Positions 20,951 to 61,793 of a DNA stretch of 64,000 nucleotides are shown here, piece after piece. Below the pieces are notes generated by a model, which searched no databases, was not told the origin of the DNA, and saw nothing but the letters and a program-made list of their open reading frames with translations. A program made the translations under genes and the position numbers. The DNA comes from a virus: positions 74,037-138,036 of IMG/VR virus record IMGVR_UViG_3300036715_002161, one strand, 5' to 3'. How positions within the stretch are numbered: position 1 is the first letter of the stretch; every line of letters starts with the position of its first letter.

Positions 20951-21688
20951 CTAGATTTCTACTACCAATTCCTGGATATATTCAGGGTTTAGCCTTATAG
21001 GTTCATATCCATAAGGGTTACAGATAACTCTGGTTTCTCCGATTTTATAGTCAAAGGAGTCATGAGTATGCCCGTGAATCCAGACCTCCGGTTGGTACTC
21101 CATAATCAATCTATCCAGGCTATTACTAAAGCAGTCATTTAAAAGGTCTCCTTTAAATCTGGCCGGAATGGATTGAAGACTAGGAGTATGATGGGTCACC
21201 ACTACAGTTTTAACCTTAGTATCCAAGGCATCTTTCAAGAACTCGACAGTATTACTGTTCTCTAGTACTGTGTCTTCTACCCTAAGTCCTTTAATAACCC
21301 TATAATCTGAGAAGTATTTCTGGACTTCCCACTTTCTAGGCTCTTCTATATTAGTCCAAAGAGTGTCTCCGATAAATCTAATCCCTTCGAAGAAAAACTC
21401 ATCTCCAGCCTGTAGGATCACACAGTTGGATAGGTCAGAGTATCTTTTTTTAAAGGCTTCCTTGGAGTATTGACTTCCGTAAAACTCGTGATTACCCGAC
21501 ACCATGACAAAAGTCTTGTCTGGATTCTCAATAAAGATTTCTCTGAGGCGATCTATAGACTCATGGCTGGAGGAGGTCATATCCCCGGCCATGACAACCA
21601 AGTCTGCCTCTTTGCTAATAGTAATCCCTAGACTATCAATAGGTCTAAGAAATTCAAGATGGACATCTGACATTACTTGAAACTTCAT
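20951..21688 (-). CDS. Calcineurin-like metallophosphoesterase
   Basis: SDVHLE, AGD, GNHE, THH, HGHTH. Confidence 0.92.
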   Translation of the reverse strand: MKFQVMSDVHLEFLRPIDSLGITISKEADLVVMAGDMTSSSHESIDRLREIFIENPDKTFVMVSGNHEFYGSQYSKEAFKKRYSDLSNCVILQAGDEFFFEGIRFIGDTLWTNIEEPRKWEVQKYFSDYRVIKGLRVEDTVLENSNTVEFLKDALDTKVKTVVVTHHTPSLQSIPARFKGDLLNDCFSNSLDRLIMEYQPEVWIHGHTHDSFDYKIGETRVICNPYGYEPIRLNPEYIQELVVEI

Positions 21689-22415: not shown

Positions 22416-22929
22416 TTTTAGGTTTGTCAAAGCCCTTTTCCAAACTTTTCGTTTGAAATCAAGTACTTACCTTCCCAACTGACAAACTGACAAACTTTCT
22501 TGAAAAAAATGCCCCCACCTCTCTATAAAAAGCTCTATTAGAACGAAAGTACGACAACCTCTATATATATATATAATATAATATAATATAATATATATAT
22601 ATAGAACAAGGGGTTAGCTCTTTTTTGTAGAGACCCAGGCTTTTCCTTTTATAAAGGTTGGCAAATAATTTTATGCTGTAGACAGAAAAGATGTGCCATT
22701 TTCACGAAAAGTTTTGTCAGTTTGTCAATAATGGGGTTAAGTGCTTGATTTTAAAAAGAAATCCAACTGACAAAACTATTTTCCCATTTGTCAATAACTG
22801 ACAAAGTATAGATAACTCTTTGTTTTAATTAACTTTTTTAATTTGTCCATTTTGTCAATAAAATCCAAAAATTGACAAACTGACAAAATGCCTCTGACAG
22901 ACTTTTGGAGTTTTGTCAGTAATTTGTCA
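22416..22929. repeat. 514-bp inverted repeat, left copy; origin-like (TGACAAA iterons, AT core, two IHF-consensus sites)
   Basis: Reverse complement of 55984-56497 with about 7 substitutions and one AT-unit shift. Confidence 0.97.
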
Positions 22930-22935
22930 TAGACT

Positions 22936-22964
22936 AAAAAAAACCAGAGATGCTTTTCTGGTTT
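22936..22964 (-). terminator. Intrinsic terminator
   Basis: - strand AAACCAGA-AAAGCATC-TCTGGTTT followed by a T run. Confidence 0.75.
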
Positions 22965-23485
22965 CCTTATTCCTTTACTCATCCAATTTATTGAACCCGT
23001 TTATGCATATATCTCTATACTCCAGTACCAGGTACCAGCTCCTGGTTACCGGATCTGGGGGCTCGCCCCGTCAGGATTCTGAAAATATAAGAATAGGTGT
23101 TACACCTATTAACTACTTGTTTACAAATTACTAAAGGAAAAACAGATATACTTAAAAAATTTTACCTATCGCATGGGGGTGCCAGTAGATAGGAAGAGCT
23201 CAATATGCCGTTACAACATACATCTTACCTGTACTAGATACTATATCTATATTCAATTTACAAAATAAGTAAAGACTTTAAAGACCTTCTTTACTTACTT
23301 TGCTGAGATGAACTCAAATTTCTCATATCTCGATATGAGCGTTGGACCGTAGCGGATATATTAAAAAACGTAGCCAGAGGCGTAGTGTTTAATATGGAGC
23401 GGTGGGTCCAGAGCTCATATCGAGAAAGTTAAACGAGGACGTTAAGCATCCTCTAACCACTCATCATGGTAGTACTTCATCCCAA
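22936..23485 (-). ncRNA. Candidate large structured non-coding RNA (~550 nt)
   Basis: Bounded by phage promoter (23490-23518) and terminator; no long sense ORF; about ten hairpins with G-U pairs that work only on the - strand. Confidence 0.65.
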
Positions 23486-23489
23486 AGTC

Positions 23490-23518
23490 CTTATACCAGG
23501 TTTTTAGAAATTATCTAA
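23490..23518 (-). promoter_or_regulatory. Phage promoter TTAGATA-N13-TGGTATAAG
   Basis: One of about 10 copies of the bipartite motif. Confidence 0.8.
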
Positions 23519-23860
23519 ACAGTTCCCGATTTTTTTAAGTACGTTACTTGGGACCCTTTCTTCAAACATTGGAAATCCGTATGCCTCATTATTAGAATTC
23601 CATAAGGCGGTTTCGATATTGAGCATGGTACTAGTTTCATGGTTATAATTGATCAAATGAAACACCTGCCCAGAGTCCATCTTTTCTGTGGCAACTTCTC
23701 TTCCATTTTTAAAACAGAAAAGTTCGTCGTCTCTACAGAGGGCTATGGCCACTTCGGCCCTGTTAGCCTCTGGTTGAAGCTTAACTTTAAACGTTACTCC
23801 ACCCTTAGGCTCCCAACTACTTGTCCTAAGATGTCGATAAAAAATCATTTCTTTGTTCAT
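23504..23860 (-). CDS. Hypothetical conserved phage protein
   Basis: KGGVT...VAIALCRDDELFCFKNGREVA pattern seen in phage proteins. Confidence 0.6.
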   Translation of the reverse strand: MNKEMIFYRHLRTSSWEPKGGVTFKVKLQPEANRAEVAIALCRDDELFCFKNGREVATEKMDSGQVFHLINYNHETSTMLNIETALWNSNNEAYGFPMFEERVPSNVLKKIGNCLDNF

Positions 23861-24329
23861 TTAAGTATCCTAAAAATGCTAAACATATAGCATCGGCTTC
23901 ATGATCTGATTTAAGTTTTTTTCCATAAATCAATTCAGCAGCGGCCAATGAAAACTCTTTGTTGAAGGAATTGCCTGGATTAGTAAAACCATGATCTCTA
24001 ACCAGTATTTTGCACAGGGTTGATTTCCAATCTATGGCCCTTACCATTTGTACTGGTATTTCTTTAGACTCAAAGTAGAATACCAAGGCCCCTATCATCA
24101 TAAGTATATACTCAGATGCTCCTGAATTTACCCCACTATATCCTACATATCTCTCCATTACAACCGAAGAAATTGAGTAGTCTTGGAGCAGGGTTTCCAG
24201 GCCGGAAATAAAACCAGTAATACCTTGGTCCCTTGGTTTGCCACTATACCTAAGGACAACCTCTCCCTCTGGACTGATTATTCCTAGTCCAAAAGAAGCC
24301 CAACCTGGATCAATACCAAGGGCGAACAT
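23826..24329 (-). CDS. ruvC: RuvC-like Holliday junction resolvase
   Basis: LGIDPG, VVMER, DHEADAICLA. Confidence 0.85.
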   Translation of the reverse strand: MFALGIDPGWASFGLGIISPEGEVVLRYSGKPRDQGITGFISGLETLLQDYSISSVVMERYVGYSGVNSGASEYILMMIGALVFYFESKEIPVQMVRAIDWKSTLCKILVRDHGFTNPGNSFNKEFSLAAAELIYGKKLKSDHEADAICLAFLGYLNEQRNDFLSTS

Positions 24330-25320
24330 ACATTATCTCATCAAACTCCCCAAGACTTGGTTGCTGAGTTTTGAAGTACTGACTTCTGGCCACTTCAAAA
24401 CTAATTGGTTTTTCAGGCCTTTTCAATAGATTGGCAGCAATATTTTCAAGACTATTTTGAAAGACAACGGCCACAGTACGAAGCCCTGCCTCATTAGCCA
24501 CTGTCAAAAACTCCTTGCGGGACTTGATTGAAACATGGCAGTTGTCTACAAATCGGACCGGGTCTTCCTGCTTGACAAACTTATTAAACTCCTTTAATAC
24601 TTTACCACTAAAGCCAGAGTCTTCTGTGGAATGTTTCCAGGCTTCTTGGTAATTTCCAGGATACCAGTCCAGTCTAAGGGTGTCCATACTAAAGATGGGC
24701 CCATCCCTTTGACCCAACCAGGTACTCTTGCCGGACCCCGAACATCCAATCATGAATAAAATTTCATTTAATTTTATATCTGGTTCTGGCAAGGTCACAG
24801 GATTTTTAAGCCAAAACTCTGCCAAAAAAATCTTTTCCTTATGATTATCTGAGATTCTTCCTCGGCAGTCAGCCATAATTACCTTGGAGTATAAATCCCA
24901 GTCAATAGTGGCCTGTGCCCACTCAGGCTTGACCTTATAGTATAGGTGATTTTCAATCAGCCATATGACTTTACCCAGGTCAAACCCGAAAGGAATATTA
25001 TCCCTATTGGTAATCAGCCAGTCTTCGGCCAATCGGGCAGAAATAAGCTCATGGCCATAAAATACAGACCTACCTTCTTTATCTCTCTTGGCTTCCGGTT
25101 TGCCAGCATCATGGAAGGCCACGGCCAAAAAGCCTGAGGCCAGGTCAGTATTAGAAAGATCGATGTCGGACCTAAGGTATTCCTGTACTACCATGTCAGT
25201 ATGAACTAGCACTGACTCCTCCCTATGCCATTCAGAGTCTTCCCGACACAGACCCATTATACGAAACAATGGATCCGGCCTCAGAACTTCTTGATAGAAG
25301 TTCAGTAGGGTTTCTTTCAT
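24310..25320 (-). CDS. HD-domain plus P-loop polynucleotide kinase-like protein
   Basis: WHREESVLVHT, FHDAGK, FYGHELISA; GCSGSGKST Walker A. Confidence 0.85.
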   Translation of the reverse strand: MKETLLNFYQEVLRPDPLFRIMGLCREDSEWHREESVLVHTDMVVQEYLRSDIDLSNTDLASGFLAVAFHDAGKPEAKRDKEGRSVFYGHELISARLAEDWLITNRDNIPFGFDLGKVIWLIENHLYYKVKPEWAQATIDWDLYSKVIMADCRGRISDNHKEKIFLAEFWLKNPVTLPEPDIKLNEILFMIGCSGSGKSTWLGQRDGPIFSMDTLRLDWYPGNYQEAWKHSTEDSGFSGKVLKEFNKFVKQEDPVRFVDNCHVSIKSRKEFLTVANEAGLRTVAVVFQNSLENIAANLLKRPEKPISFEVARSQYFKTQQPSLGEFDEIMYVRPWY

Positions 25321-26969
25321 AGGTTGTTTACCCTTTCTCTAATTTCAGTAATAGTTTGAAACTTGGTGATTTCACCATCCTTAAAGACAGTTTCTAGACA
25401 ACCAGTTTTTTCCTGTTCTGGAGTTTGTTGATCGTATAGGACATATTTTCCATTTTCCTTTTCAACTCTTAAAAGACCTTTGGCTGATTTCTTGGTGCCT
25501 GAATCAGTGGCTGGATCTTTTACAAGTTCTACGGATTGACCTTGGATAACTCCATGGGTTGCTTTCATTGCAAATCCCAGAGAGTCTCTGGTTACATAGT
25601 TATAGGTGTATGACCCAATACCAAAAACCACGTTATCACTACAAAACCCTTTTTCCTCCAAACGCCTAAAGATTTCCTCGGCCCGTGCCAATGTAATTGA
25701 ATCACCATAGATCAAACCAATATGGCTATCCAACATCTTATACCCAGTGTCAGTTACAACTCCTCCGAAGATTTCCCAAAGACATTCTACAGCTCCTTTT
25801 AGCTCTGGGGTAAGAGTGGTTATTTCTAAGTTAACAGGATTAATATCATCATAGAGATTAACCCTATATAAGTTACCTTTCCAATGGAAATAAGTAAGGC
25901 CATCGGACCACATTGGGTTTACACCTGTTTCTAATTGAATCTTATCTAAATATCTCAAGGCCTCATTCATGGTATTCCCGACCGCATCAATTATTTTTAC
26001 CCCACAGATAATTTCTACGGGATCGCCAGAGTCAGGTCTTAAGACGGTTTTAGACTGGCCAATACCATTTGCGGGTCTGGCCAAAATCTCCTCCTTAAGC
26101 TCAGGGAGATACTCGGTAATAACCTTCCAAAAATCCCAGGTGTCAGAAACGATAGATACAATGCCTGTAGGATAGACTTCACTAATGAGTCTACGGAAGG
26201 TTTCAATTTCTGTTTCCTTGCTACCCATACACATTACAGAATGTTCCGTCGCAGGGACACTTCCCCCAAGGAAAGTATCCAAACCGTTGTAGTAGTCTTC
26301 TAGGTAGTCTAAGGATGGTACGGTATCAGTTCCTGAGAAACAGGTCAAATGGGCAGCTCCACTCTTGGCTGCATCCTGCATTGAACTCATACCTCTCATT
26401 GAGAAGTCGTGGCATTGCCATCCTTTGAAACCAGGGTGGCCCCCAGTCAGTGCAGAATATTTGTCAACCAGTTTTTTATAACCAAGGGCTGTGGTGGCCG
26501 AGGTAATTGGCTTCCACAATTCTACAGAAAACAAAGTTTCCAGATAGGTAACCAACCAGGCAAAGTGTGGATCGGTATTGGTCACAGTAAAGACCGGAAC
26601 TTTAAAGGGAACCATGCTTCCCTCTGGAAGGGCCTTAATTTCCAAAGGTAAGTATCCAAGTTCCCACAAGGCTTTGATATGATCGGTTCCGACCAGTCCG
26701 GGCCCAAGGGCTTTGTCCATTCTAGCCTTATATCGGTCAAGAATGTTTTCAATTGGTTTCCTGAAGAAATTATCTTTCCACAGGTCAATTAGAGTTGATT
26801 GCATGAACCCTTGAAGGCCGAAGAACAATACTCCTTCTACACCCTCTTGTAGAAAGTAGCTACCACTCCTGGGAGTGAAGTTGGAATAAATCTTTTCAGT
26901 TCCTTTCGGGTACTGGCTGATGTGGCCGGACTTATAGAAGTCGATTTGATGTTCTGGGCGAATATTCAT
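25317..26969 (-). CDS. nadV: Nicotinamide phosphoribosyltransferase-like (Namat/NadV)
   Basis: DFYKSGH, HDFSMRG, SVPATEHS, SIVSDTWD, RPDSGDP, IYGDSIT, KKSAKG. Confidence 0.93.
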   Translation of the reverse strand: MNIRPEHQIDFYKSGHISQYPKGTEKIYSNFTPRSGSYFLQEGVEGVLFFGLQGFMQSTLIDLWKDNFFRKPIENILDRYKARMDKALGPGLVGTDHIKALWELGYLPLEIKALPEGSMVPFKVPVFTVTNTDPHFAWLVTYLETLFSVELWKPITSATTALGYKKLVDKYSALTGGHPGFKGWQCHDFSMRGMSSMQDAAKSGAAHLTCFSGTDTVPSLDYLEDYYNGLDTFLGGSVPATEHSVMCMGSKETEIETFRRLISEVYPTGIVSIVSDTWDFWKVITEYLPELKEEILARPANGIGQSKTVLRPDSGDPVEIICGVKIIDAVGNTMNEALRYLDKIQLETGVNPMWSDGLTYFHWKGNLYRVNLYDDINPVNLEITTLTPELKGAVECLWEIFGGVVTDTGYKMLDSHIGLIYGDSITLARAEEIFRRLEEKGFCSDNVVFGIGSYTYNYVTRDSLGFAMKATHGVIQGQSVELVKDPATDSGTKKSAKGLLRVEKENGKYVLYDQQTPEQEKTGCLETVFKDGEITKFQTITEIRERVNNL

Positions 26970-27769
26970 TTAGTATAAACCTTAACGTTGGGGTTACAAA
27001 ATACAGTATCATTGACCATCTTAAATATAAATATATCTTTGTAATACAAGAGTAAGTCAAAAAATCCTTTAGAAAAGATACCATGTGTTACATACAGGAA
27101 AAGATGTACGGTACTACCAGTCTGTCTTATGGCCTTGGCCAACTCTATAAATGTCTTGCCACCGTCACATATGTCGTCGACAACTAATATTGACCGATAT
27201 TTATAGGCCTCCAACTCTTTATTGTTTACCTCTATACCGACAATATCCCCATTGTCTGCATCTCTGATCTTGGTGGCGGCAGTAAACGGTAAGTTAAGGG
27301 ACATGGCCAGTGTTCTAGTTTTTTCTAAAGCTCCATGGTCTGGGGCCATCAGTATTGACTTATCTAACACTGGCCGTGGGATTGCCACTAAGGCAGCAAT
27401 AAATTGGGGGATTACGGAGCTACGTTCTAAAAGACCTGAGACTTCACTATGAGGGTCTACAAGGCTGACATGGTAAAACTTGGCAGCATTTATAAGGTCA
27501 CAGAAAACTTTTAGAGAAAATGCTTCTCCAGGATAACATGCACGGTCTTGTCTACCATAGGGTAAATATTCCAGACTAAGGCTTACCTCTATTACTCCTG
27601 CCCGATCCAGGGCGTCTTTGACCAGTAATAGGGTCATTAAGTCATCAGAGGACCGGATGTCATAATCCAGACAGATTTTCTCAGGTAAGGACTCAACCAG
27701 TCGTATCTGGATTTCCCCGGCTGAGAATTTAATAGGATAGCCAGGAGCCATCAGTTCAGATATTTTCAT
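26966..27769 (-). CDS. prs: Ribose-phosphate pyrophosphokinase-like (Prs/Adps)
   Basis: FSAGE, YLPYGRQDR, DPHS, APDHGA, VVDDICDGGKTF, THGIFS. Confidence 0.92.
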   Translation of the reverse strand: MKISELMAPGYPIKFSAGEIQIRLVESLPEKICLDYDIRSSDDLMTLLLVKDALDRAGVIEVSLSLEYLPYGRQDRACYPGEAFSLKVFCDLINAAKFYHVSLVDPHSEVSGLLERSSVIPQFIAALVAIPRPVLDKSILMAPDHGALEKTRTLAMSLNLPFTAATKIRDADNGDIVGIEVNNKELEAYKYRSILVVDDICDGGKTFIELAKAIRQTGSTVHLFLYVTHGIFSKGFFDLLLYYKDIFIFKMVNDTVFCNPNVKVYTK

Positions 27770-28173
27770 TTAAATTCCCCATTTATAATCTCCGAGTCTG
27801 ACGAGTTTAAACCGCTGCTACAATTTACTGCGACTACTTCAGAGGTACTCTTTAGACTGAATCGGACAAGTCGGGTCTCCAAGGCATCACAGCCGAACAA
27901 ATGTTCATATTCGGCAGATGCATGGAGCCACCATCTAAGAGCTTGGGCAGCCGAATACCCCAGGAGTCCGGCATTGGAAAGTTCTTGGTCATACGGACTA
28001 TGACTTGGAATTCCAGAAGGATTTTCTTGAAACTTGACCTCGACCCAGTTATTGTCGAAAGTCTGACCTGAAACGGTCAAAGGTCTACTAGATACTCTGG
28101 CCTCTACTGAATACCCGGTCTTTCGACTAGATCCAGTACTTCTGTTCATTCTGTAACCTTGCTCAAGTTCCAT
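27766..28173 (-). CDS. Hypothetical protein, first gene of the NAD operon
   Basis: RBS AAGGAG upstream; stop overlaps prs start. Confidence 0.65.
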   Translation of the reverse strand: MELEQGYRMNRSTGSSRKTGYSVEARVSSRPLTVSGQTFDNNWVEVKFQENPSGIPSHSPYDQELSNAGLLGYSAAQALRWWLHASAEYEHLFGCDALETRLVRFSLKSTSEVVAVNCSSGLNSSDSEIINGEFK

Positions 28174-28191
28174 TTAATTCTCCTTTGAAAT

Positions 28192-28430
28192 AAAAAAAGT
28201 TCAATCCACACCTGACTGGGATAGCGAATCCCAATCAGGTACAGGTTGAAGACTGCTCTTGTGAAACAATCAACAGCTTTCTGAATACCGGCAGGTCACC
28301 ACCAGGCTCCAGACGTCCAGTTTCAACAGCTTGACTAAGGCTGTTACGTTATGTCAGGGCGTCTGTAACACCCCTATCAATACCCTATGCTTATAACTGG
28401 AAAGTTCAGCAAAAGTATTAATTCTCTATT
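28192..28430 (-). ncRNA. Candidate structured leader/small RNA ending in a long terminator hairpin
   Basis: Promoter at 28434-28463; nested stems; 14-bp hairpin plus T7 at 28192-28250. Confidence 0.6.
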
Positions 28431-28433
28431 GTT

Positions 28434-28463
28434 CTTATACCAAATTCTTAGGAACTTATCTAA
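28434..28463 (-). promoter_or_regulatory. Phage promoter TTAGATA-N14-TGGTATAAG
   Basis: Exact bipartite motif. Confidence 0.8.
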
Positions 28464-28497
28464 TTCAACCTAGACTTGGAGACAAAGGTTCTGCCTA

Positions 28498-29121
28498 TTA
28501 TTTCCTATGTCTAAACGATTGTCTTAGGTCAAAGCCATACTGATTAATTTTGTCCCGGTCACCTATTTCTACCAGAGTAGGTTCCGGTGGAGACATAAAA
28601 CAGGCCAGGTCTTGATAAAGTTGTTCTGGTGGATATTGGGCGGCAAAGCCTACTATGTTCTTAAGGATGGGGATTTCGGCGTCAATTACCACATAGTCTT
28701 TATACGGAGTCAATCCTTTGATTATAAAAACTGGGGTTCCCATTCTATGGGAAAGGTCTACCAGGTTTTGATCCATGAAGCCTGTATAGTAATCTAATTG
28801 CTTCTTGTTAACACTACGTGGATTATAGAGCAGAATTTTAGCTATTTCCGTGTGTCTTACCGGGTTGAAGAGGCTCCAGGTATAATCGGGATCCATCACT
28901 ATTAGGTAGTATTTACCAACTACACATAAATATCTACATTGGTAGTCTCTGGTCGGAAATAGGTTTCGATCTGTCTCATAGTTAATTGTTATACTTCCAG
29001 AGATCCCTTCTGCTGACAAGGGAACAAGCCTATTACGAGAGTAGATTACTTTGGGATCACCACCACCATATAGGTGAGGTACATGGTCATAATAGTCTTT
29101 GAACTTGGATTGAATTATCAT
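28498..29121 (-). CDS. Hypothetical conserved phage protein
   Basis: MIIQSKFKDYYD...DKINQYGFDLRQSFR conserved-looking termini. Confidence 0.7.
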   Translation of the reverse strand: MIIQSKFKDYYDHVPHLYGGGDPKVIYSRNRLVPLSAEGISGSITINYETDRNLFPTRDYQCRYLCVVGKYYLIVMDPDYTWSLFNPVRHTEIAKILLYNPRSVNKKQLDYYTGFMDQNLVDLSHRMGTPVFIIKGLTPYKDYVVIDAEIPILKNIVGFAAQYPPEQLYQDLACFMSPPEPTLVEIGDRDKINQYGFDLRQSFRHRK

Positions 29122-29192
29122 AGATTAGAAATGTTCCAATGTTTCATTCTATTTTCTCCTTGGGTATGGTAAAGTCAGGTAACGTAGTTCAC

Positions 29193-29543
29193 TTACTCTT
29201 CCCACTCAATACTAATACAGGCAATAAGACCTGGCCAACGATTACATGAAGCTCGTGCTTCTTCTTCGGTTTTATAAATAGACCTACCTGCCACTTCATC
29301 TTTATATATATTGATCCAGCCTTCCTTCTTAACTGGAGCCATGAATAGATCCATGAGAGGGTGGGGACTTTCGTTTGAGATACGTCCAGTCACTGTGAAA
29401 GTGATGATCTGCCCAAGTATTACTGCACAAACCTTGTGGCTCCCATCTACTGAGGGGAAGTATGCAATATCAGTCACCAGTTTTTTATCGCCAGTCATTA
29501 CTTTTGCACCGGCAAGTGCTTCTTCTAAAACAAATGGTTTCAT
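29193..29543 (-). CDS. MKPF-family paralog 1
   Basis: Shares MKPF..ALAGAKV, TDIAY, DLFMAP, EGWINI, IEWEE with five other ORFs. Confidence 0.9.
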   Translation of the reverse strand: MKPFVLEEALAGAKVMTGDKKLVTDIAYFPSVDGSHKVCAVILGQIITFTVTGRISNESPHPLMDLFMAPVKKEGWINIYKDEVAGRSIYKTEEEARASCNRWPGLIACISIEWEE

Positions 29544-29729
29544 TTCAATATCCTTCTACTATTATTAAATGGGTTTGGAACTACGCGGCTAATTAGGTCA
29601 GCAACTGAATGCCACCCAGCCTGTGCTTCCGCGAACTGCTCCGCAGCTTCCCATGCGTTGTCGGCCTGCAATAAATCAAATGTTTCCAAATTATCTAGTT
29701 CCATTGCTTGATTGCTCATTTCAATCCCG

Positions 29730-30074
29730 CTAGATTTCCCACTTAATACGAATACAGTCGATAGGACCTAGGCCACCTGAAGCTCGTGCTTCTCCTTCGG
29801 TTTTATATATAAACTGCCCAGTCATTCTACCAATATGGATATTGATCCAACCTTCTTTCTTAACTGGAGCCATGAATAGATCCAGGAGAGGGTTGGGACT
29901 ATATTTTGAGATACGTCCAGTCTCTGTGAAATAACGGATTCCCCCGTCTATTACTGCACCAACCTTGTAGGGACTGTTTACTGAAGGTAAATACGCAATA
30001 TCAGTTGCCGGTTTTCCAAGGCCGGTTATTACTTTTGCACCGGCCAAGGCTGCTTCTAAATTAAAAGGTTTCAT
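29730..30074 (-). CDS. MKPF-family paralog 2
   Basis: Same conserved blocks. Confidence 0.9.
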   Translation of the reverse strand: MKPFNLEAALAGAKVITGLGKPATDIAYLPSVNSPYKVGAVIDGGIRYFTETGRISKYSPNPLLDLFMAPVKKEGWINIHIGRMTGQFIYKTEGEARASGGLGPIDCIRIKWEI

Positions 30075-30547: not shown

Positions 30548-30623
30548 TGGTGGGACCGCCCAGGGATGATCTGGGATAATACAAATTATGAGTTTGCTGC
30601 ATTACCAGTTATGCTACAGTCCC
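30548..30623 (-). tRNA. tRNA with CAT anticodon (Met or Ile2), encoded CCA, atypical T-loop
   Basis: Acceptor GGGACTG/CGGTCCC, anticodon arm GCAAA-CTCATAA-TTTGT, T arm CCCAG-ATCATCC-CTGGG, ends ACCA. Confidence 0.85.
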
Positions 30624-30625
30624 TT

Positions 30626-30702
30626 TGGTCCGACAGACAGGATTTGAACCTGTAACCTACGGATTAGAAATCCGTTGCGCTATCCGGTTGTGCTACTGTC
30701 GG
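30626..30702 (-). tRNA. tRNA-Arg(TCT), encoded CCA
   Basis: Acceptor CCGACAG/CTGTCGG, anticodon arm ACGGA-TTTCTAA-TCCGT, GGTTCAAATCC. Confidence 0.95.
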
Positions 30703-51480: not shown

Positions 51481-51753
51481 TCACCTAATAAGTGTTTCGT
51501 AAAGTTTCCAATCACAGGCCAAAATATCTTCCGGTTTAAACCCTACAAGTCCTGTGAACAAAAATGGTTCTGGTTTAAACATGATACTCCAATATTCTCC
51601 AGGTTGCCATCCTGACCGACAGATTTTTTCGCCACACTTTAATTCAAATAATGCTTTTTCAAAGTTCATAATAGTTCTCCAAAAGAAACAAATAAAAAAA
51701 ACCAGGATCAAAACTACCGATCCTGGCGAGTGGCTAGACAAAAAAGCTAGCAA
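51481..51753 (-). CDS. Small conserved phage protein (DUF2829-like); probable start at internal MNFEKAL
   Basis: MNFEKALFELKCGEKICRSGW...EDILACDW. Confidence 0.6.
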   Translation of the reverse strand: MLAFLSSHSPGSVVLILVFFICFFWRTIMNFEKALFELKCGEKICRSGWQPGEYWSIMFKPEPFLFTGLVGFKPEDILACDWKLYETLIR

Positions 51754-51816
51754 GGAGCAGCGGTCTAATAAAACGACCGCAACAAAAGAAAAAAGTAAAC
51801 TCTACTCTCTACCTTA

Positions 51817-51846
51817 CTTATACCAATATATAAGCCCTATATCTAA
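51817..51846 (-). promoter_or_regulatory. Phage promoter TTAGATA-N14-TGGTATAAG
   Basis: Exact bipartite motif, intergenic. Confidence 0.8.
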
Positions 51847-61750: not shown

Positions 61751-61793
61751 CTTATACCACTTTTAATCCGTATTCTCTACCAGAGTTAAAATA
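61751..61793. promoter_or_regulatory. Back-to-back divergent promoters (leftward TGGTATAAG class, rightward GTTAAAATA class)
   Basis: CTTATACCA at 61751-61759 and GTTAAAATA at 61785-61793 at the strand switch. Confidence 0.7.

What the first reader, a model, noticed from the sequence alone, without database searches (positions are those of the whole stretch)
28174..28463. ~240-nt structured leader with terminator in front of the NAD-reconstitution operon
Seen on the - strand: exact phage promoter, then nested pairings CTGAA/TTCAG, AGG..TATTG..AGG/CCT..TGGTG..CCT, CAGACG/CGTCTG and AACAGC/GCTGTT forming a rod with bubbles. A 14-bp hairpin with two G-U pairs and T7 follows, ending just before the RBS of 28173. 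I see no other promoter for the downstream operon. Inference: either an attenuator/riboswitch tying NAD-salvage expression to a metabolite (NAD+, ADP-ribose, PRPP) or antiterminator, or an independent 6S-like rod RNA; one bubble contains TATAAG, the phage's own -10 sequence.
Basis: partly seen in the sequence, partly recalled or inferred. Interest (0 to 1): 0.72.

Follow-up and report, generated by a model that had tools for sequence, protein, structure and literature searches.

The report
Promoter, untranslated RNA and terminator before phage operon
In an orphan metagenomic phage, a strong phage promoter fires into about 235 bases of untranslated RNA that ends at a very strong terminator just before an operon holding NAD-rebuilding genes; this looks like a termination gate or small RNA, not a demonstrable riboswitch.

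Summary
The anatomy is real. On the - strand, an ORF-free gap (28174-28497) holds an exact copy of the phage's recurrent promoter: TTAGATA-N14-TGGTATAAG, 28463-28434. That motif gives 8 matches in the window, all on the - strand, against 0.13 expected.

About 235 nt of RNA without any ATG follow. Next comes a 21-bp hairpin (28250-28200, -27.8 kcal/mol) plus T7. This is the most stable of the 81 hairpin-plus-T-run rows found in the 138-kb genome. It ends 7 nt before the AAGGAG RBS of the 135-aa gene at 28173.

The claimed rod is not supported. It is 12.4 kcal/mol worse than the MFE fold and less stable than the average shuffle. Without the terminator the RNA body is only marginally structured (z -1.78; 12 of 200 shuffles as good).

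No Rfam family matches. No homologue was found in 173 other loci (1.43 Mb), and this phage has no close relatives in the collections, so covariation could not be tested. The best antiterminator pairing is worth about -6 kcal/mol, against a terminator that adds about -27.

The same order, promoter then terminator then RBS, recurs at two other promoters of this phage.

Best reading: a promoter-proximal termination gate, relieved by read-through or antitermination, whose terminated product is a small RNA. The riboswitch and 6S-like readings are unsupported. Interest is modest.

The scan had noted this same stretch once before (e1-6145900), in another window of this same genome; it found no look-alike on other DNA.

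The parts
28457..28463 (-). -35-like element TTAGATA of the class-A phage promoter
   Evidence: 0-mismatch match to the recurrent motif; 22 such promoters on the - strand of the genome
28434..28442 (-). extended -10 element TGGTATAAG (hexamer TATAAG at 28439-28434)
28427..28427 (-). inferred transcription start (an A, 7 nt after the -10 hexamer); not measured
   Evidence: inference from promoter geometry; sequence
28253..28427 (-). untranslated RNA body, about 175 nt; predicted as a row of five local hairpins, with no ATG
   Evidence: MFE -51.4 kcal/mol, z -1.78; no ATG; no ORF; no Rfam family
28200..28250 (-). terminator hairpin: 14-bp core with two G-U pairs, extended to 21 bp, 5-nt loop
   Evidence: -27.8 kcal/mol, the lowest of 81 hairpin-plus-T-run rows in the genome; present in every fold
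28192..28198 (-). T7 tract of the terminator, 1 nt after the stem
28180..28185 (-). Shine-Dalgarno AAGGAG of the 135-aa gene, 7 nt after the T tract
28418..28431 (-). upstream copy (CAATAGAGAATTAA) of a 14-nt imperfect direct repeat, 12 of 14 identical
   Evidence: its partner is 28174-28187 (CAAAGGAGAATTAA, the working RBS region), 244 nt away
28174..28187 (-). downstream copy of the direct repeat; overlaps the RBS
27766..28173 (-). first gated gene, 135 aa, family of unknown function
   Evidence: 45 homologues besides itself at E<=0.001, none with a Pfam domain; no Pfam, PHROG or NCBIfam hit; AF2 pLDDT 88.6 with no PDB match at E<=0.001
26966..27769 (-). Prs-like gene, Adps-like, first gene of a NARP1-type pair
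   Evidence: Pfam Pribosyltran_N and Pribosyltran; phrog_619; 38-43% identity in the listed rows to Prs-like genes of cultured phages
25317..26969 (-). NAMPT-like gene, Namat-like, second gene of the pair
   Evidence: Pfam NAPRTase and NAMPT_N; phrog_448, E 1.7e-192
24310..25320 (-). 336-aa gene with a polynucleotide-kinase-like P-loop C-terminus
   Evidence: AAA_33; phrog_6931 and phrog_505; weak NCBIfam hits far below their cut-offs
23826..24329 (-). RuvC-like resolvase gene, still in the same run of overlapping genes
   Evidence: phrog_1770 and phrog_159

Best explanation
This is a promoter-proximal termination gate.

A strong class-A phage promoter starts an untranslated RNA of about 235 nt. 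That RNA runs into the most stable intrinsic terminator of the genome, 7 nt before the RBS of the operon. The operon holds the 135-aa gene, the Adps-like and Namat-like genes, a kinase-like gene and a RuvC-like gene.

Most transcripts should stop there and leave a stable small RNA with a 3' hairpin and a U tail. The operon is made only from polymerases that read through. Read-through would come either from a constant leak or, more likely for a phage, from a processive antitermination factor made earlier in infection.

The gate would therefore set the level or timing of the operon. It would also stop transcripts coming from the upstream unit.

Shown here: promoter identity, absence of ORF and ATG, terminator strength, absence of a second promoter motif, and recurrence of the layout. 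Inferred: the start site, termination efficiency, read-through and its cause, and accumulation of the RNA.
For: - The promoter is an exact member of a class with 8 window matches against 0.13 expected, all on the - strand.
- Leader lengths. Of the 22 class-A promoters, the RBS-plus-ORF screen gives a leader of 13-64 nt for 13. It gives 147-290 nt for five: 51825, 44418, 48235, 30736 (which drives two tRNAs) and this one at 260. It found no such ORF for three, and the first row for one (51825) is a spurious start, as read.
- The terminator hairpin (-27.8 kcal/mol) is the lowest of 81 rows; the next are -22.7 and -19.8. It forms in every fold.
- The order is promoter, then terminator, then RBS. 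That is the reverse of the ordinary terminator-then-promoter order, and only 18 nt lie between the T tract and the ATG.
- The same order recurs in this phage. The promoter at 51846-51817 is followed by a leader of about 110 nt, a hairpin at 51727-51701 with a T9 run, then GGAG and the ATG of a 62-aa gene. A promoter 8.2 kb before the window is followed by an 11-bp hairpin plus T6 starting 6 nt after the -10 hexamer, before its gene.
- No class-A, sigma-70-type or late-type promoter motif serves the operon downstream of the terminator.
- There is no ATG in 255 nt. P = 0.003 in 2000 dinucleotide shuffles, although 4% of all 255-nt genome windows also have none.
Against: - No expression data. No RNA run holds the stretch, so the start, the stop and any read-through are all inferred.
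- No antiterminator was identified. Pfam Phage_antitermQ, Antiterm and NusG find nothing in the 138-kb record, which is only 78% complete.
- The RNA body is barely more structured than chance (z -1.78) and has no homologue. Nothing shows that its sequence matters.
- A 14-nt direct repeat flanks the RNA plus terminator. It may mark an accidental insertion that the phage merely tolerates.
- In the variant run X4, contigs end at 28225 and 28313. I infer differences inside the RNA. That would not fit strong constraint, but the letters were not shown.
- Counter-defence genes would be expected early, which sits uneasily with a tight gate.
Confidence: 0.45

Rival explanations
1. This is a stand-alone, trans-acting small RNA gene. 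The promoter and terminator exist to make a 235-nt regulatory RNA that acts on host or phage targets. The effect on the downstream operon is a side effect.
For: - It is a complete promoter-to-terminator unit without ORF or ATG.
- A long 3' hairpin plus U7 is typical of stable small RNAs (recalled).
- The phage has other ORF-free units driven by the same promoter class. One drives two tRNAs at 30548-30702. Another is a stretch of about 550 nt from 23518 to a terminator near 22940; part of it, 23135-23503, folds with z -4.6.
Against: - No target was found. The best complementarity to the phage genome is a 14-nt match at E 0.15.
- There is no homologue.
- The body is weakly structured.
- It does not explain why the operon has no promoter of its own.
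Confidence: 0.25
2. This is a relic. A 244-nt piece carrying a terminator was inserted or duplicated into an ordinary promoter-RBS cassette. The RNA body has no function, and the operon lives on leaky read-through.
For: - A 12-of-14 direct repeat sits exactly at the two ends (28431-28418 and 28187-28174), 244 nt apart.
- The upstream copy sits where other class-A promoters carry their RBS, for example TATAAG-aacatagaaggactt-TTG at 61759.
- Body z is -1.78, and there is no homologue.
- Contig breaks inside the RNA in run X4 hint at variation.
Against: - ATG avoidance.
- The extreme strength of the hairpin.
- Two further promoter-terminator-RBS layouts in the same genome argue for design rather than accident.
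- No second copy of the piece exists in the genome.
Confidence: 0.15
3. This is a metabolite-sensing riboswitch or attenuator (NAD+, ADP-ribose, PRPP or similar) that opens the terminator when the counter-defence pathway is needed.
For: The position, directly before an operon holding a NARP1-type pair; a long untranslated leader ending in a terminator; and alternative pairings, such as the repeated AAGCTGTTGA at 28332-28323 and 28279-28270.
Against: - No Rfam family, including the NAD+ and PRPP classes, at gathering score or at E up to 10.
- The competing helix (CUUAGUCA with UGAUUGGG, plus 3 bp) adds about -6 kcal/mol. The full transcript is 26.7 kcal/mol lower with the terminator than without it.
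- The first gated gene is not an NAD gene, and its homologues sit in unrelated contexts.
- Among 87 other non-redundant Prs-NAMPT loci, 8 have a terminator-like hairpin near the operon front. The two distinct cases inspected lie just behind the previous gene's stop, the ordinary place.
- A cultured Prs-NAMPT phage, Eryne, has an AT-rich 198-nt gap there with no terminator in the fold.
Confidence: 0.05
4. This is a 6S-like rod RNA that binds RNA polymerase through a promoter-like bubble.
For: Complementary words that could build a rod exist, and TATAAG lies at 28395-28390.
Against: The rod is 12.4 kcal/mol worse than the MFE and less stable than the mean shuffle. Pair probabilities are 0.0 for three of four helices. 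No 6S hit appeared at E up to 10. A TATAAG in 235 nt is not rare.
Confidence: 0.02

Closest known systems
Lambda PR'-tR' unit (the 194-nt '6S' leader transcript, read through with Q); recalled from textbook knowledge, not from a call
   Same: A strong promoter, a roughly 200-nt untranslated leader, a strong intrinsic terminator directly before an operon, and a short terminated RNA as the default product.
   Different: No Q-family protein was found (Pfam PF06530 and PF03589 gave nothing). The -10-like TATAAG lies about 33-38 nt into the transcript, by my count from the inferred start; that is further in than the Q-system pause elements as I recall them. The gated genes are on the strand of the early-type promoters, not late genes.
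HK022 put RNA (a cis-acting RNA that makes polymerase terminator-resistant); recalled
   Same: Structured RNA just behind an early promoter and upstream of terminators. It would explain how transcripts from this promoter alone pass the hairpin.
   Different: There is no sequence or model to test against. The body here is about 175 nt of weakly supported hairpins. The other two gated leaders of this phage share no significant similarity with it; the 51825 leader was compared, with an alignment score of 18 against a null mean of 16.7 and a null maximum of 24.
Leader-derived small RNAs made by termination in a 5' leader: GraL before greA (PMC2836576) and UpsM before the dcw cluster (PMC5089854); abstract starts seen in the listing only
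   Same: The promoter serves both a short terminated RNA and, by read-through, the downstream genes.
   Different: Those are cellular and conserved. This one is in a phage with no known relatives, and its terminator is much stronger than a partial terminator would need to be.
NAD+ riboswitches (nadA and pnuC motifs) and PRPP riboswitches in Rfam
   Same: Position before genes of NAD or PRPP metabolism; a terminator as the putative expression platform.
   Different: No match at gathering score or at E up to 10. No credible antiterminator.

Membership tests
Any Rfam riboswitch or cis-regulatory family (including NAD+-I, NAD+-II, PRPP, bglG-cis-reg, freshwater-2) | Covariance-model score at or above the family's gathering score | tested here: not met
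   Window-wide, only two tRNAs pass. At E up to 10 over 28100-28560, the best hits are bglG-cis-reg at 19.1 bits against 80 and freshwater-2 at 16.3 against 49.9; both lie on the terminator and RBS.
Transcriptional riboswitch (as a mechanism) | Mutually exclusive terminator and antiterminator of comparable stability | tested here: not met
   Full transcript -84.9 kcal/mol with the terminator, -58.2 with its 3' arm blocked. The 5' arm's alternative pairing adds about 6 kcal/mol over the body alone (-57.7 against -51.4).
Transcriptional riboswitch (as a mechanism) | Aptamer conserved, with covariation, across relatives | not testable with these tools
   No relatives were available. Nothing in the phage collection at DNA level. 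NAMPT relatives reach at most 60% identity. The polymerase-size protein's best relative is 23% identical. None of the 173 loci carries the class-A promoter. nhmmer, blastn and the covariance model found nothing.
6S RNA | Long rod with a central bubble as the dominant fold | tested here: not met
   The forced rod gives -39.0 against an MFE of -51.4 kcal/mol; pair probabilities are 0.0 for three of four helices; no 6S hit.
Intrinsic (Rho-independent) terminator | G+C-containing hairpin directly followed by a U tract | tested here: met
   A 21-bp stem, -27.8 kcal/mol, followed by C and U7. The tool's simple scan missed it; I attribute that to the extended stem lying between the 14-bp core and the T run.
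Class-A promoter of this phage | TTAGATA, 13-14 nt, TGGTATAAG on the - strand upstream of a gene or RNA | tested here: met
   0 mismatches.
NARP1 (Adps plus Namat), for the gated genes | Adjacent Prs-like then NAMPT-like genes in one operon | tested here: met
   This matches the layout in 10.1101/2024.02.11.579819 (passages read). Enzyme specificity for ADPR or ADPR-PP was not tested.
Lambda Q-type antitermination | A Q-family protein encoded by the phage | tested here: not met
   PF06530 and PF03589: 0 matches at E<=0.1 in the 138-kb record, which is 78% complete.

The most novel reading that the evidence does not exclude
The leader is a new kind of sensor. The RNA, or an RNA-protein pair, would open the strongest terminator of the genome only when host NAD+ is being destroyed, for example by binding ADP-ribose, nicotinamide or a defence signal. 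The phage would then switch on its NAD-rebuilding and repair operon on demand. That would be the first regulated anti-defence operon of this type.
Probability: 0.04. Interest if true: 0.85.

Novelty: new member of a known kind. Interest (0 to 1): 0.3.

Why it matters
If the gate is real, it shows how one phage times or doses a counter-defence operon (a NARP1-type NAD+ rebuilding pair plus repair-type genes) by termination control.

Together with two further promoter-terminator-RBS units and two ORF-free promoter-driven units (one drives two tRNAs, one about 550 nt of RNA), it points to a phage transcription programme built on terminators and small RNAs, in a lineage with no known relatives.

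The NARP1 preprint I searched has no occurrence of the words riboswitch, promoter or terminator. That paper therefore does not address regulation of this pathway; I did not search the other NARP1 papers for this.

As it stands, this is a single sequence without expression or comparative support.

Tried and rejected
RELATIVES FOR COVARIATION (none usable)
- blastn of 1.5 kb against 50,697 phage records: no match.
- tblastn against the phage records: no match for the 135-aa protein. The 207-aa protein gave one 32%-identical hit in Ralstonia phage RP13.
- The search for related loci in viral contigs:
  - the 135-aa protein alone: none;
  - its 43-sequence alignment: 12 loci at 32-46% identity, in unrelated gene contexts;
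  - the Prs-like protein: none;
  - the 207-aa protein: one locus at 29%;
  - NAMPT: 80 loci kept of 135, at 41-60%;
  - the 932-aa protein: one locus at 23%.
- NAMPT in metagenome contigs: 80 loci kept of 393, best 57%.
- None of the 173 loci carries the class-A promoter.
- nhmmer and blastn of the RNA against them: nothing below E 0.5.
- A single-sequence covariance model of the body (R1): only itself in 1.49 Mb.
- Exact 27-mer in viral contigs: 0 hits.
- Exact 22-mer in genome contigs: one hit in a 72%-GC actinobacterial contig that does not extend beyond 22 nt, so it is chance.

SEQUENCING RUNS
- No RNA holder is listed.
- Four DNA runs (microbial mat and sediment) hold the stretch; three may be its own source.
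- Laying them showed no listed difference inside 28174-28463, but 187 rows were not shown.
- In run X4, contigs end at 28225 and 28313 with extra depth between. I read this as variation inside the RNA that I could not see.

OTHER TESTS
- Antiterminator for upstream transcripts: the inverted repeat 28464-28478 / 28236-28250 (80% over 15 nt) does not displace the terminator in the 324-nt fold.
- Shared motif among leaders: none above the null.
- Targets in the phage genome: none.
- Known antiterminator families: none.
- Terminators before other Prs-NAMPT operons: my first script (0 of 78) chose start codons badly and is superseded (8 of 87). Of those, four loci (two distinct sequences) have the hairpin directly before prs. 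I inspected one locus of each, and both hairpins sit just behind the previous stop codon.
- Structure of the 135-aa protein: a confident model with no PDB match.
- Supplements of papers were not opened.

Full report
WHERE WE ARE

The window is the last 64 kb of a 138-kb virus record, estimated 78% complete. The same DNA is held by four microbial-mat and sediment DNA runs, three of which may be its own source.

From about 21 kb to 61 kb nearly all genes lie on the - strand. The finding lies in a 324-nt gap (28174-28497). Upstream is a 207-aa gene of unknown function (28498-29121). Downstream is a run of overlapping genes:
- a 135-aa gene (27766-28173);
- a Prs-like gene (26966-27769);
- a NAMPT-like gene (25317-26969);
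- a 336-aa gene with a polynucleotide-kinase-like P-loop (24310-25320);
- a RuvC-like resolvase (23826-24329).

The Prs-then-NAMPT pair has the layout described for NARP1 in 10.1101/2024.02.11.579819 (passages read). In the listed rows the Prs-like protein is 38-43% identical to those of cultured phages. Calling the whole run an 'NAD operon' is too narrow. Its first gene is of unknown function, and that gene's homologues sit in unrelated contexts.

THE OBSERVATION: WHAT HOLDS

Promoter.
- TTAGATA-N14-TGGTATAAG at 28463-28434 is an exact copy of a motif that occurs 8 times in the window with up to 2 mismatches. All 8 are on the - strand. The expected number is 0.13, and 0 of 100 shuffles reach 8.
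- One more exact copy with N13 lies at 23490-23518.
- Across the genome I count 22 on the - strand.

Leader lengths by the RBS-plus-ORF screen.
- 13 promoters: 13-64 nt.
- 5 promoters: 147-290 nt. These are 51825 (147, by my reading), 44418 (163), 48235 (253 by this screen, though an earlier ORF list puts a TTG start 24 nt away), 30736 (290, driving tRNA-Arg and tRNA-Met) and this one (260).
- 3 promoters: no such ORF found. These include 23498, which is followed by about 550 nt without an ORF and then a terminator.

The gap is non-coding. No frame on the - strand exceeds 49 aa from stop to stop. There is no ATG at all in the 255 nt up to the gene's own start codon. P = 0.003 in 2000 shuffles, but 4% of all genome windows of that size also lack ATG.

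Terminator.
It extends to 21 bp (28250-28200) and is followed by C and T7 (28198-28192).
- AAGGAG follows at 28185-28180 and the ATG at 28173.
- At -27.8 kcal/mol it is the most stable of the 81 hairpin-plus-T-run rows my scan lists for the whole genome. The next are -22.7 and -19.8.

No class-A, sigma-70-type or late-type promoter motif lies between the terminator and the genes, or anywhere down to 23518.

THE OBSERVATION: WHAT DOES NOT HOLD

- The 'rod with bubbles'. The complementary words are there. Forcing three of the four helices gives -39.0 kcal/mol, against -51.4 for the MFE and -43.6 for the average shuffled sequence. Three of the four helices have pair probability 0.0.
- The MFE is a row of five local hairpins.
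- The z-score of -4.5 for the whole gap is mostly the terminator. The body alone (28253-28428) has z -1.78, with 12 of 200 shuffles as good. The opposite strand has z -0.41.
- Among 15 gaps of 150-400 nt in the genome, this one, 23135-23503 and one gap that contains a terminator stand out.

WHAT IT IS NOT

- No Rfam family matches. At E up to 10, four of the five weak hits are on the terminator and RBS, and the fifth is on the opposite strand of the body. All are far below their thresholds.
- A riboswitch needs an antiterminator that can compete. With the 3' arm blocked, the 5' arm pairs with the loop of the third hairpin (8 bp with three G-U pairs, plus 3 bp) and gains about 6 kcal/mol. The terminator lowers the full transcript by 26.7 kcal/mol.
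- I could not test conservation, because the phage has no close relative in any collection I could reach. None of the 173 fetched loci carries its promoter type.
- Other Prs-NAMPT loci do not show this layout. 8 of 87 non-redundant loci have a terminator-like hairpin near the operon front. The two distinct cases I inspected sit just behind the previous gene's stop. The cultured phage Eryne has an AT-rich 198-nt gap with no terminator in its fold.

WHAT IT MOST LIKELY IS

The telling feature is the order: promoter, long untranslated RNA, very strong terminator, RBS. An ordinary boundary between transcription units has the terminator first and the promoter second.

The same reversed order occurs twice more in this genome.
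- At 51846-51690: class-A promoter, a leader of about 110 nt, an 11-bp hairpin with a T9 run, then GGAG and the ATG of a 62-aa gene.
- At a promoter 8.2 kb before the window: an 11-bp hairpin plus T6 begins 6 nt after the -10 hexamer and precedes the gene.

I therefore read the unit as a promoter-proximal termination gate. Most transcripts end at 28192-28198 as a small RNA of about 235 nt. The operon is expressed only by read-through, either leaky or driven by an antitermination factor. I could not identify such a factor; no Q, Antiterm or NusG family member was found. This works like lambda PR'-tR', or HK022 put plus terminators (both recalled). It also works like cellular leader-derived small RNAs such as GraL and UpsM (listing only). 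Membership in any of these families is not claimed.

The 21-bp stem is also long enough to be cut by RNase III, which could free the operon mRNA from read-through transcripts. That is inference only.

A PIECE OF HISTORY

A 14-nt direct repeat, 12 of 14 identical, brackets the RNA plus terminator exactly: CAATAGAGAATTAA at 28431-28418 and CAAAGGAGAATTAA at 28187-28174, 244 nt apart. The upstream copy sits where other class-A promoters carry their RBS.

The simplest history is that a canonical promoter-RBS-ATG cassette was split by a 244-nt insertion or duplication. This fits either a gate that was acquired or a tolerated relic.

In run X4, contigs stop at 28225 and 28313 with extra depth between. 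This suggests allelic differences inside the RNA, but the letters were not shown.

VERDICT

The promoter, the non-coding gap and the terminator are real and significant. The rod, the riboswitch and the 6S readings are unsupported. The best explanation is a termination gate that also yields a small RNA (0.45). Rivals are a trans-acting small RNA (0.25), a relic insertion (0.15), a riboswitch (0.05) and a 6S-like RNA (0.02). It is a new member of a known kind of control element, in an orphan phage, without expression or comparative evidence. Interest 0.3.

Noticed in passing
window 51690-51846 (- strand): A second promoter-leader-terminator-RBS unit. An exact class-A promoter is followed by a leader of about 110 nt, then a GCCAGGATCGG/TGATCCTGGT hairpin with a T9 run, then GGAG and the ATG (51669) of a 62-aa gene. 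The 90-aa TTG ORF listed at 51481-51753 is probably spurious.
   Followed up: partly
window 22936-23518 (- strand): An exact class-A promoter (13-nt spacer) is followed by about 550 nt without an ORF and a weak terminator (ACCAGA...TCTGGT plus T8) next to the repeat-rich stretch at 22416-22929. The part at 23135-23503 folds with z -4.6.
   Followed up: partly
genome C1:65750-65810, about 8.2 kb before the window (- strand): A class-A promoter whose transcript would begin with an 11-bp hairpin plus T6, directly before the RBS of a 65-aa gene. It is either a very early stop or a 5' stabiliser.
   Followed up: partly
genome C1:13253-13276 and C1:42536-42559 (- strand): Two copies of one terminator hairpin (CAGGGCTC...GAGCCCTG and CAGCGCTC...GAGCGCTG) that differ by a paired, stem-preserving double change. 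They belong to a repeated promoter-gene-terminator module.
   Followed up: no
window 27766-28173: The 135-aa protein belongs to a family with 45 other members at E<=0.001 and invariant AQALRWW. None has a Pfam domain. The AF2 model is confident (pLDDT 88.6: a long beta-hairpin, a helix, a beta-hairpin) and has no PDB match at E<=0.001.
   Followed up: partly
window 24310-25320: The 336-aa gene after the NAMPT-like gene combines a weak match to part of a CCA-adding enzyme model (residues 26-111) with a polynucleotide-kinase-like P-loop (residues 187-315). That looks like an RNA-repair type enzyme. A metallophosphoesterase gene lies at 20951-21688. A 2026 preprint (10.64898/2026.01.28.702374, abstract start only) links phage phosphatases to NARP1.
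   Followed up: no
window 29192-30000: The paralogous genes of about 115 aa are a hotspot of variation in all four metagenome runs, with many substitutions, small indels and joints between paralogues. In the flanks only run X4 shows differences: four in the Prs-like gene and six in the 207-aa gene.
   Followed up: no
window 28225 and 28313: In run X4, contigs end at these two places inside the RNA and depth rises between them. This suggests a second allele of the terminator loop through the fourth hairpin. The differing letters were among the rows not shown.
   Followed up: partly
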